From the NCBI GenBank assembly GCA_964016885.1, contig OZ024747.1, positions 85,188,001 through 85,252,000 of the forward strand: a DNA stretch of 64,000 bases, read 5' to 3'. A model generated the notes under the pieces. That model ran no database searches, had not been told where the DNA came from, and saw only the letters and a list, made by a program, of their open reading frames with translations. Positions within the stretch are counted from its first letter, which is position 1. Each line of letters begins with the position of its first letter. A program made the position numbers and the translations under genes. This document shows, one piece after another, positions 4,100 through 46,153 of the stretch. The stretch comes from Eledone cirrhosa. Taxonomy: Eukaryota.

Positions 4100-5360
4100 G
4101 CGAGGTTTTTTATATGAAATCGTGCTAAACCCATGGCCTCCAAATACCTGATACTCAAAAACTCAGCAATGTCCAGTAGTGCTAAGTTTAATATTCTGAT
4201 CGCAGATTTGGTACGAGTGATGAAGAATGTGTCCAGCATGTGCGACCCAACAGAAATGGAAAGACACATCCAACACTTCATCAACCGCATGCAGTTCTCT
4301 GGCTACAACCAAAGAGACGGAGTCAGAGTATACGAAGGAGCCATGGAAAAGTATAAGACCCTCATAGAACTGGACATGAAAGGAATTTGCCCACTATACA
4401 GGAGCAAATCATGGAATAGCTTAGATAGGGCTAGACATAAGATAGGGAAGGCCACATCATGGTACGACAACCAGAGATATCAGAGTGTCATGTTTGTGGA
4501 CGCCACCCCTGGAGGGAAATTAGCTAAGCAGTGTAGAAAGGCCCTGAGAAAGACTCACTTAAAAATAAAGGTGGTAGAAAAGCCAGGAACCACCATAAAA
4601 TCCCTGATCAGCAAAACCTACCCTTTTAAGAAAACCCACTGTACCAATAGGAAATGTATCATATGTAAGGTGAACCCCCGGATAAACTGTAAAACTAGAA
4701 ACGTAGTCTATAGCATAAGATGTACAGAGGGTACTTGCAGAAACATGACAACAACATACATAGGTGAGACAGCTCGTAGCATAGGTGAAAGGATAGACCA
4801 ACACTGGGGGGAACTAAAAGGACGAAAAAACGGGTCAGTACTATACGAACATGCTAGACAACAACATGACGGTAACATAGACAACATAGAAATTAGAATA
4901 ATATCTAAACATAGGAATGACCCAGCAGATAGGCAAATCAGAGAGGCCAGTGAAATAGAAATTAGAAGACCAAAGCTAAACAGAAAGAATGAGTGGAACA
5001 ACAACAACACCCAAACAAACAACACTGACCTAAGAGAAGTGTAAATAAGTAAATAAATAAAATAAAATAAAATAAGATAAATAAATACATACACAAGCAC
5101 AATAACAACAAGCACATAAACACACACTAGTCACCCAGCAGACACAACACTATACACACTAGTCACACAGCACACATAACACTATACACACACGCAAACG
5201 CATGCGCAAAGAAGACAAAATAAAATAAACAAACAAGCAAATAAATATATAGACAGACTGAATAAAAAATGGCGTAGACATACAACACAACAGGAGGAAA
5301 AAAAAAAAAAAATAACACCACTGACGATGTTGCAGATGTGCAACGAAAGATTTATGTAAA
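4100..5360 (+). mobile_element. 5'-truncated Penelope-like element (Neptune-type): RT C-terminus, Cys-rich linker, GIY-YIG endonuclease, 3'UTR with hammerhead remnant
   Basis: ORF 4133-5044: CTNRKCIIC linker, NVVYSIRC...YIGETARSIGERIDQH...REASEIEIRRPKLN; sense-strand CTGACGA-T-GTTGCA-gatg-TGCAAC-GAAA at 5321-5348. Confidence 0.88.
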
Positions 5361-5559
5361 TTATGTAAACTATATATATGTGTTTGTGTCTATATTGTAT
5401 CTGTATTATTTTTGACCGTCGGTCAGTCAATGGCAACATTGAGGACCGAGTAAGTTAGATCGCAGATATAAAAGACAGCGAGAAGCGAAAACCAACCAAA
5501 CAGTGAGTGTGTTCTGTTATTAATTCTGGCAATATTACGCAAATATGACCCTCCCCAAG

Positions 5560-6086
5560 TATATATATATATGTATATGTTTATATGTATATATATGTAT
5601 ATATGTATATATATATATGTATATATATATATATGTGTATGTATATGTGTATGTATGTGTATATGTATGTGTATGTATGTGTATATGTATGTGTATATAT
5701 GTGTGTATATATGTGTATGTATGTGTGTATGTATGTATGCATGTGTGTATGTATGTGTGTATATATATATATGTGTGTATATATATATATATGTGTATAT
5801 ATATACGTGTGTATATATGTGTATGTATGTGTATATATGTGTGTATGTATGTATGTGTGTATGTATGTGTGTGTATGTATGTATGTGTGTATGTATGTGT
5901 GTATGTATGTATATATATGTATATGTATGTATATATATGTATATATATGTATATATATGTATATATATATGTATATATATGTGTATATATGTATATATAT
6001 GTATATATATATGTATATATGTATATATATGTATATATGTATATATATACATATATATATACATATATACATACATATATACATAC

Positions 6087-6117
<31 letters not shown>

Positions 6118-6188
6118 CATACATATATACATACATATATACATACATATATATATACATATATATGTATATATATATATATGTATGT
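5560..6188. repeat. (TA/TG)n compound microsatellite
   Basis: Direct inspection; similar tracts at 2688-3086, 12815-13115, 13868-14117, 24020-24340, 44600-45070, 45961-46420. Confidence 0.97.
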
Positions 6189-44560: not shown

Positions 44561-44600
44561 AGACTAATAGAATATGTATGTATGTATGCATATATGAATA

Positions 44601-44656
<56 letters not shown>

Positions 44657-44892
44657 ATAATAATAAATGTGAAGACTAAAATAAATAAATATATATGTAT
44701 ATATATATATATATATATGATATATATATATATGTATATATATATTTATTTTAGTCTTCACATTTATTATTATTACTATATATATATATATATACACATA
44801 CATATATGTATATACAATATATTTTTATATATATAAAAATATTTTTTGCTTGGTGTATCCCAACAAATTAAATATAACCTCTACATATATGC

Positions 44893-44974
<82 letters not shown>

Positions 44975-44977
44975 GTG

Positions 44978-45073
<96 letters not shown>

Positions 45074-45201
45074 CGTGGTATTTTCTTCGTGGTTATAAGA
45101 GGCTTAGCTCTGTTTCTCGACCGTTATATCGCGTGACTGTCTCCCCCTCCGCCTTTTGGGATTCTTTCTCGCGTCGTGTAGACGCGTTCTTGAGACTAGT
45201 A

Positions 45202-45303
45202 AAATGAGGTATCCTCTTGATAAGTCGGCAGACCTCGCAAGTACTCTATATCTTTGATATATTGTTTTTGTTTATGCCACGAAACTACGTAGTCGAGGAA
45301 TTT
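45202..45303 (+). ncRNA. Type I hammerhead ribozyme, U3-A8 core variant (copy 1)
   Basis: Stem I TCCTC/GAGGA; core TTGATAA; stem II GT(C)GGCA/TGCCAC; GAAA; palindromic stem III CTACGTAG; GTC cleavage triplet, cut after 45294. Confidence 0.8.
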
Positions 45304-45792
45304 AGGAACAGTTTAGGTATGATACATTTTATTACTAATTATATCTAAATGTTTCTTCTCTCTTCATAATGTATTTTTAACTCTGATACTGGTTCAGTCT
45401 GGTTCAAACTGAATTAGTCTGTCCCAGTCATTCATTGAGCAACATCGGTGAAGTTGGCACCCTTAACTCACAGTTGGGTGCGGATGCATTCATGTATATA
45501 TGTGTGTGTCCGCATGTATCTGTGTGTTTCTAAATATATTAATAACTCCCTCTGGTCGAGCAATCTTTGAAGTGTGGGGACAACTGGAAAGCTTCCATTA
45601 CTCATACTTCTCGCCTTCTTCACTACCTCTTCTGCGGCCTCGATGTGAATACCCCCTCCGCCTCCGTGGTATTTTCTTCGTGGTTATAAGAGGCTTAGCT
45701 CTGTTTCTCGACCGTTATATCGCGTGACTGTCTCCCCCTCCGCCTTTTGGGATTCTTTCTCGCGTCGTGTAGACGCGTTCTTGAGACTAGTA

Positions 45793-45894
45793 AAATGAGG
45801 TATCCTCTTGATAAGTCGGCAGACCTCGCAAGGACTCTATATCTTTGATATATTGTTTTTGTTTATGCCACGAAACTACGTAGTCGAGGAATTT
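45793..45894 (+). ncRNA. Type I hammerhead ribozyme, U3-A8 core variant (copy 2)
   Basis: Same elements as copy 1 shifted by 591 bp; cut after 45885. Confidence 0.8.
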
Positions 45895-45959
45895 AGGAAC
45901 AGTTTAGGTATGATACATTTTATTACTAATTATATCTAAATGTTTCTTCTCTCTTCATA

Positions 45960-46007
<48 letters not shown>

Positions 46008-46008
46008 A

Positions 46009-46064
<56 letters not shown>

Positions 46065-46104
46065 TATGTATGTATATATATATATATATATATGTGTATA
46101 TATA

Positions 46105-46153
<49 letters not shown>

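What the first reader, a model, noticed from the sequence alone, without database searches (positions are those of the whole stretch)
45202..45303. Variant hammerhead core (U3-A8) with a candidate stem I bulge / loop II pseudoknot
Seen: the core reads UUGAUAA instead of CUGANGA, so both partners of the 3-8 pair changed together (C-G to U-A), identically in both copies. The stem I bulge GAGGT (45206-45210), closed by AAAT/ATTT, is complementary to ACCTC (45232-45236) at the start of an unusually long loop II of about 44 nt. Established: the 3-8 Watson-Crick pair is needed for catalysis and tolerates compensatory swaps, and stem I / loop II contacts accelerate natural hammerheads. Inference: the covariation argues for selection on activity, and a search requiring CUGANGA would miss this family.
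Basis: partly seen in the sequence, partly recalled or inferred. Interest (0 to 1): 0.72.

Follow-up and report, generated by a model that had tools for sequence, protein, structure and literature searches.

The report
Knotted hammerhead in a jumping retrozyme
This is a hammerhead self-cutting RNA motif, with an already known base swap in its core, carried by thousands of copies of a non-coding jumping repeat in an animal genome; comparing young and old subfamilies suggests that it likely folds with an extra knot and likely cuts as a pair, but cutting has not been tested.

Summary
The motif is real: a type I hammerhead with a U3-A8 core, one per 591-nt unit of a young tandem repeat (7,047 matches genome-wide, control 0; U3-A8 in 6,282 of 6,304). 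The repeat is a non-LTR retrozyme with Penelope-style insertions in (TA)n. U3-A8 and stem I/II pseudoknots are both in print, and this scan already noted this family elsewhere in the genome.

New here is the comparative test. Across six U3-A8 subfamilies and a distant, probably homologous C3-G8 family, stems I, II and III and the 3-8 pair covary. The pseudoknot holds (UGAGGU/ACCUCR against YGAGUUU/AAACUCG; 709 of 786 cells paired, 23-57% when slid), but on only about two compensated changes.

No Rfam hammerhead model matches. No RNA data; activity untested. New variant of a known kind.

The parts
45071..45961 (+). One retrozyme insertion: 1.5 units of a 591-nt tandem unit, i.e. two 300-nt direct repeats (45071-45370, 45662-45961), each with a hammerhead
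44572..45070 (.). (TA)n-rich run on the 5' side (insertion target)
   Evidence: 50 of 51 family 3' ends run into TA
45960..46150 (.). (TA)n run on the 3' side, directly after the commonest fixed 3' end (unit position 591)
45205..45210 (+).
45212..45216 (+). Stem I 5' strand UCCUC
   Evidence: 4 of 5 pairs change on both sides
45217..45223 (+). Core U3 U4 G5 A6 U7 A8 A9
45224..45230 (+). Stem IIa 5' strand (G10.1, U, bulged C, GGCA); pairs with UGCCAC 45275-45280
   Evidence: G10.1-C11.1 in 50 of 50; next pair CG 26, UA 23
45232..45237 (+). Pseudoknot 3' strand ACCUCG on the 5' side of the stem II internal loop
45238..45270 (+).
45281..45284 (+). Core G12 A13 A14 A15.1
   Evidence: invariant in alignments
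45284..45293 (+). Stem III: perfect 10-nt palindrome ACUACGUAGU
45294..45295 (+). Predicted cleavage site after C17 (GUC)
   Evidence: hammerhead numbering (established knowledge); not observed
45295..45299 (+). Stem I 3' strand GAGGA
45295..45885 (+). Predicted unit-length RNA between the two cleavage sites (591 nt), strongly folded
   Evidence: z -6.7 linear; z -8.4 folded as a circle
45304..45355 (+). Predicted long hairpin just upstream of the fixed 3' end; its base can capture GAGGA (with 45360-45364)
45539..45539 (+). Second fixed 3' end of the family (unit position about 169), internal in this copy
   Evidence: 22 of 51 ends
45796..45890 (+). Second hammerhead copy (pseudoknot strand to stem I 3' strand); predicted cleavage at 45885/45886

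Best explanation
This is a type I hammerhead motif with a U3-A8 core, repeated once per 591-nt unit of a young non-coding retrozyme family, and it likely uses a six-pair pseudoknot and likely pairs with a second copy in order to cut. Shown: motif, family size, covariation of stems I-III and of the 3-8 pair, conserved complementarity of the pseudoknot strands, palindromic stem III, insertion pattern. Inferred mechanism: (1) a transcript runs through two or more units; (2) two hammerheads swap their palindromic stem III strands into a 10-bp duplex; (3) in each, UGAGGU upstream of stem I pairs with ACCUCG in the internal loop of an elongated stem II and docks stems I and II, in place of the usual non-Watson-Crick loop contacts; (4) cleavage after C17 frees a 591-nt unit that would circularise and refold into a non-hammerhead shape; (5) a Penelope-like RT/GIY-YIG enzyme supplied in trans would copy it from two fixed internal start points into (TA)n. 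U3-A8 is most simply a tolerated compensatory swap fixed once in the ancestor of the lineage. Odds: functional hammerhead 0.9, pseudoknot 0.8, dimer 0.75, Penelope-type mobilisation 0.8.
For: Core and stems: 92.9% of 650 cells paired, 32-48% when slid; 9 of 13 pairs change on both sides; 3-8 is UA 34, CG 15, other 1. Family state U3-A8 in 6,282 of 6,304. Pseudoknot: 709 of 786 cells paired in all 131 distinct copies, 184-451 when slid; GAG/CUC is the majority state in all nine subfamilies while flanking positions vary; pair 5 is G-C in six subfamilies and U-A in family J; pair 1 is U-A, U-G or C-G; cross-family strands mostly pair worse, about -3.5 against -6 to -9 kcal/mol. Family J aligns to subfamily G outside the ribozyme (score 260, best of 100 shuffles 193). 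Dimer: stem III is a perfect palindrome in four states (ACUACGUAGU, ACUGCGCAGU, ACUGUACAGU, ACCCAUGGGU); monomer hairpin +1.5, duplex -12.9 kcal/mol; precedent in PMC4209133 and PMC6765202. Mobility: 49 of 51 3' ends at two positions, 50 of 51 into TA, 40 of 55 5' ends at inversion junctions, none at the cleavage site; a young high-copy element with a 1,257-aa RT/GIY-YIG-like frame shows the same two-ended TA footprint.
Against: No cleavage and no RNA were observed. The pseudoknot rests on about two independent compensated changes; the count of pairs changed on both sides is no higher than in shuffles (3 against 3.1); offsets and trimmed ends were set by me after seeing the subfamilies; pair 6 is broken in subfamily F; two cross-family combinations also pair well (J1 strand with AB loop -8.7). 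Nested folding does not favour the hammerhead by itself (median 0.8-11 kcal/mol above the best fold), and in the window copy GAGG prefers a hairpin with CCUC (p 0.92 in one folding window). Subfamily J3 and some J2 copies have non-palindromic stem III. Homology of J is weak against A and D (z 2.7, 3.3) and a profile search did not detect it. The one autonomous element tested shares no sequence with the unit. No Rfam hammerhead match.
Confidence: 0.7

Rival explanations
1. The hammerhead is active, but UGAGG and CCUCR are conserved for another reason (non-Watson-Crick loop contacts, protein or RT binding) and do not pair.
For: Three of six pseudoknot pairs (GAG/CUC) do not vary between subfamilies, so they say nothing about pairing; few compensated events.
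Against: Where they change, both sides change and stay paired (G-C to U-A; U-A, U-G, C-G); in family J the 5' strand is a clean 7-nt bulge matching the 7-nt loop strand.
Confidence: 0.13
2. It works as a monomer with a 3-pair stem III and a 4-nt loop, stabilised by the pseudoknot; the palindrome is incidental.
For: Three Watson-Crick pairs plus a tetraloop can form; J3 has a non-palindromic stem III.
Against: The four central bases stay self-complementary through four different states, which a hairpin loop does not need; monomer hairpin energy is positive.
Confidence: 0.12
3. The youngest subfamily's ribozyme is crippled or mostly misfolded, and the element spreads from uncleaved multimeric transcripts.
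For: Competing GAGG/CCUC hairpin and capture of GAGGA by the 3' hairpin; no 5' end at the cleavage site; Penelope-element hammerheads were slow in vitro (PMC4209133).
Against: Core and stems were kept through every subfamily replacement; a circular template also leaves no end at the cleavage site.
Confidence: 0.05

Closest known systems
Metazoan non-LTR retrozymes (Cervera and de la Pena 2020, PMC7229834, passages and section 14 read; Li, Clavereau and Pollet 2026, bioRxiv 10.64898/2026.07.22.740005, parts 1-2 of 5 and passages read)
   Same: Non-coding tandem units, one type I hammerhead per unit, thousands of copies, strongly folded unit, Penelope-like elements in the same genome.
   Different: 591 nt against about 170-400 nt given for invertebrates; U3-A8 core; elongated stem II with internal loop; Watson-Crick pseudoknot in place of the loop 1/loop 2 contacts described there (the word pseudoknot does not occur in either main text); circles shown there, not here.
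U3-A8 hammerheads (Perreault et al. 2011, PMC3088659, passages and section 8 read; Schistosoma Cercyon Penelope-like elements, Cervera and de la Pena 2014, PMC4209133, passages read)
   Same: Same compensatory swap; Penelope-associated context; palindromic stem III read as a dimer signal.
   Different: The Schistosoma motifs are minimal and mostly single; here the motif is full-sized, tandem, and has a C3-G8 sister family with the same outer architecture.
Pseudoknot-stabilised hammerheads (PMC3088659: about 40% of representatives, all three types; human C10orf118 hammerhead with a 5-pair pseudoknot)
   Same: Base pairing between elements of stems I and II as the tertiary contact.
   Different: Here the partner strand lies in an internal loop capped by a further hairpin, together with a dimer-type stem III; I did not find this combination in searches, but figures and the supplement of PMC7229834 could not be seen and Lunse et al. 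2017 is not held.
Penelope-like element insertions (Craig et al. 2021, PMC8557442, passages read)
   Same: 5' truncation, partial tandems, inverted 5' copy, extension at one end, microsatellite targets.
   Different: No coding frame; the partner element is not identified.

Membership tests
Type I hammerhead ribozyme | Core 3-9 with a Watson-Crick 3-8 pair | tested here: met
   U3-A8; UA 34, CG 15, other 1 of 50
Type I hammerhead ribozyme | G12 A13 A14, A15.1-U16.1, H17, G10.1-C11.1 | tested here: met
   A-U 50 of 50, G-C 50 of 50; GAAA was required by my search patterns
Type I hammerhead ribozyme | Three helices, stem I open | tested here: met
   9 of 13 pairs change on both sides
Type I hammerhead ribozyme | Match to an Rfam hammerhead model | tested here: not met
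   none at gathering score or E up to 10; none for two J loci and one G locus
Type I hammerhead ribozyme | Self-cleavage after N17 | not testable with these tools
   needs an assay
Pseudoknotted hammerheads (Perreault 2011) | [quoted passage not shown] | tested here: met
   6 pairs; 709 of 786 cells; about two compensated changes
Pseudoknotted hammerheads (Perreault 2011) | Disruption lowers the rate and compensation restores it | not testable with these tools
   needs kinetics
Dimer-type hammerheads | Short palindromic stem III in tandem copies | tested here: met
   four palindromic states; J3 is an exception
Non-LTR retrozyme | Tandem units, one type I hammerhead each, dispersed in many copies | tested here: met
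Non-LTR retrozyme | No protein coding | tested here: met
   no open frame of 150 codons or more confined to the unit in 60 loci
Non-LTR retrozyme | Strongly self-paired unit RNA | tested here: met
   z -6.7, z -8.4 as a circle
Non-LTR retrozyme | Accumulates as circular RNA | not testable with these tools
   no RNA run was listed
Penelope-mobilised element | Fixed 3' ends, 5' truncation, inverted 5' arm, microsatellite target | tested here: met
Penelope-mobilised element | Sequence shared with the terminal repeat of an autonomous element | tested here: inconclusive
   none with the one family tested; other Penelope-like families in the genome were not tested

The most novel reading that the evidence does not exclude
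A hammerhead subclass that curated models miss, gated twice: it cuts only when two units dimerise through stem III and the pseudoknot docks, and the same GAGG strand flips into a hairpin with stem I to switch the finished circle off. U3-A8 would be a selected rate setting rather than a neutral swap, since it was kept through six subfamilies and occurs in an unrelated minimal family of the same genome.
Probability: 0.2. Interest if true: 0.62.

Novelty: new variant of a known kind. Interest (0 to 1): 0.4.

Why it matters
It gives a natural series (nine subfamilies in one genome) in which the 3-8 core pair, all three stems and the tertiary pseudoknot have changed in step. The evolved variants are ready-made controls for asking whether U3-A8 is neutral and how a pseudoknot and dimer formation combine. 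It also shows that retrozyme counts based on CUGANGA descriptors or Rfam can miss families of thousands of copies.

Tried and rejected
Alternative CUAG/YUAG closing stem: seen in subfamilies AB, J1 and J3 but only 46% in fixed columns over A-F; so the 5' strand may be a bulge in some subfamilies and a free strand in others. GAGG/CCUC hairpin as a conserved switch: 77.4% against 77.3% for shuffles; limited to some subfamilies. Splice-donor reading of the conserved GGUA about 20 nt 3' of the cut: the +5 G is absent in most D, G and E copies; not supported. Loci L093-L095 and L129-L133: stems do not fit a hammerhead and they lie in coding-like sequence; rejected. Family K (L154-L157): too decayed to use. 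Profile search for J homology gave only microsatellite hits. Expression: no RNA holder listed; four runs of unrecorded kind were laid as contigs and show presence only. Pfam and PDB sequence searches with the 1,257-aa frame found nothing; its RT and GIY-YIG labels rest on the Atlas look-alikes and on motifs that I recall. Papers not held: Lunse et al. [quoted passage not shown]

Full report
Observation. They form a type I hammerhead: stem I UCCUC/GAGGA, core UUGAUAA and GAAA, G10.1-C11.1, A15.1-U16.1 and C17 at 45294. A second copy lies 591 nt on and differs at 1 of 300 positions. Rfam gives no hammerhead match, at the gathering score or at E up to 10.

Context. The two copies belong to one 891-nt insertion (45071-45961) between (TA)n runs. 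It is 1.5 units of a 591-nt tandem unit. The genome (3.0 Gb) holds near-identical arrays at many places (945 candidates, 40 scored) and 7,047 matches of the core-to-stem-III pattern, control 0. In 60 loci, collapsed by flank, 49 of 51 3' ends fall at unit position 591 (27) or about 169 (22), 50 of 51 run into TA, 5' ends are scattered, 40 of 55 lie at inversion junctions, and none lies at the cleavage site. This matches the Penelope-like footprint in PMC8557442 (passages read). The unit has no long open frame and folds far better than shuffles. It is a non-LTR retrozyme in the sense of PMC7229834. A young, very abundant element with a 1,257-aa frame (36,044 candidates, 150 scored), whose Atlas look-alikes carry RT, HTH_animal and GIY-YIG families, ends in the same way: of 30 loci, 15 and 13 stop at two fixed ends before TA and 2 run on in tandem. 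It shares no sequence with the unit, so it is a candidate helper only.

The U3-A8 core. In the young subfamily, 6,282 of 6,304 copies have U3-A8 when both positions are left free. A CUGANGA search gave 17 hits (control 7), none with this stem III. Pattern searches with other stem III sequences found older subfamilies (C, D, G, E, F) and a family J of about 685 nt. Of 131 distinct copies, 102 of 106 in AB-G are U3-A8 and 24 of 25 in J are C3-G8 (the pattern allowed only A or G at position 8). J aligns with G outside the ribozyme (238 positions, 71%, score 260 against a best shuffle of 193), more weakly with A and D; I take homology as probable. On 51 of the 131 copies (up to six per subfamily; visibly truncated ones left out) the core structure is paired in 92.9% of cells, 9 of 13 pairs change on both sides, and 3-8 reads UA 34, CG 15, other 1. 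The swap is already in print: natural U3-A8 in PMC3088659 (section 8 read) and about 1,300 hits in Schistosoma Penelope-like elements in PMC4209133 (passages read).

The pseudoknot. The family register is UGAGGU (45205-45210) with ACCUCG (45232-45237), one pair longer than proposed. With one offset per subfamily, set by eye, 709 of 786 cells pair in all 131 copies, against 184-451 when slid by 1-3. On a MAFFT alignment of 44 trimmed copies, 88.5% pair against 18-57% slid, and the covariation score is 0.277 against 0.151 in shuffles; the number of pairs changed on both sides (3) does not exceed shuffles. The informative changes are pair 5 (G-C in AB-G, U-A in J) and pair 1 (U-A, U-G, C-G); pair 6 is U-G in E and broken in F. 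That is about two independent events plus conservation of GAG/CUC while the adjoining stems turn over, so I put the pseudoknot at 0.8. Three details change. The AAAU/AUUU closing stem is not a family feature. The 44-nt loop II is predicted to hold a hairpin, leaving the partner strand in an internal loop. In the window subfamily GAGG can instead close a hairpin with CCUC, but this is not conserved. Pseudoknots between stems I and II are common (about 40% of representatives in PMC3088659, with mutational support there and a 5-pair case in the human C10orf118 motif).

Stem III is the palindrome ACUACGUAGU. Relatives have ACUGCGCAGU, ACUGUACAGU and ACCCAUGGGU; J3 and some J2 copies are exceptions. 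A monomer hairpin costs +1.5 kcal/mol and the two-strand duplex gives -12.9. Palindromic stem III is the published sign of dimer cleavage (PMC4209133; PMC6765202, passages read). Nested folding alone does not favour the hammerhead, which fits a need for both the pseudoknot and the dimer, but is also a caution.

Mechanism. Shown: structure by covariation, family size, insertion ends. Inferred: transcription through tandem units, dimer and pseudoknot formation, cleavage after C17, circularisation, refolding of the unit into a non-hammerhead shape, and copying by a Penelope-like enzyme from two internal start points. No RNA evidence was available.

Novelty. Each component is known. The combination of an internal-loop pseudoknot, an elongated stem II and a dimer-type stem III in an animal retrozyme, with a C3-G8 sister family, did not turn up in searches; figures, one supplement and three relevant papers could not be read. 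Earlier notes of this scan describe the same family in this genome and U3-A8 retrozymes in other genomes; I reached the retrozyme reading before opening them. Verdict: new variant of a known kind, interest 0.4.

Noticed in passing
L134-L153, L170-L173: Family J: about 685-nt units with a canonical C3-G8 hammerhead of the same architecture and a 7-pair pseudoknot; the two loci scanned had no Rfam hammerhead match.
   Followed up: yes
L096-L099, L126, L127: A second, apparently unrelated U3-A8 family with a minimal stem II, palindromic stem III (ACAGCGCUGU in the hit at C8:58678010-like copies; decayed in the fetched ones) and units of about 317 nt.
   Followed up: partly
L125, L158-L160: Another U3-A8 hammerhead-like family with long stem II; a possible pseudoknot to the 3' side of the internal loop was seen by eye only.
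   Followed up: no
window 45071-45075 (unit positions 291-296): Five of 15 non-inverted 5' ends cluster at unit positions 291-296, at a CCCCUCCGCC motif that occurs twice per unit and is kept in older subfamilies; possible transcription start or RT stop. The sample is biased by the query.
   Followed up: no
L174-L207: Very abundant young Penelope-like element with open frames up to 1,257 aa, two fixed 3' ends in (TA)n, inverted arms and a CUGAAGA..GAAA motif in its 3' region.
   Followed up: partly
window 4123-5010 and 5542-6150 (- strand): Older fragments 71-74% identical to that Penelope-like element.
   Followed up: no
L107-L109: Decayed C3-G8 minimal hammerhead-like motifs sharing the palindromic stem III ACUUCGAAGU.
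   Followed up: no
window 45304-45355: A long hairpin just before the fixed 3' end; similar hairpins appear by eye in subfamilies D-G and may be the signal for the copying enzyme.
   Followed up: partly
runs X1 and X5 on window 45060-45975: Contigs of 621 and 620 nt, one unit plus about 30 nt, as expected from a tandem repeat or a circle; run kind not on record.
   Followed up: no
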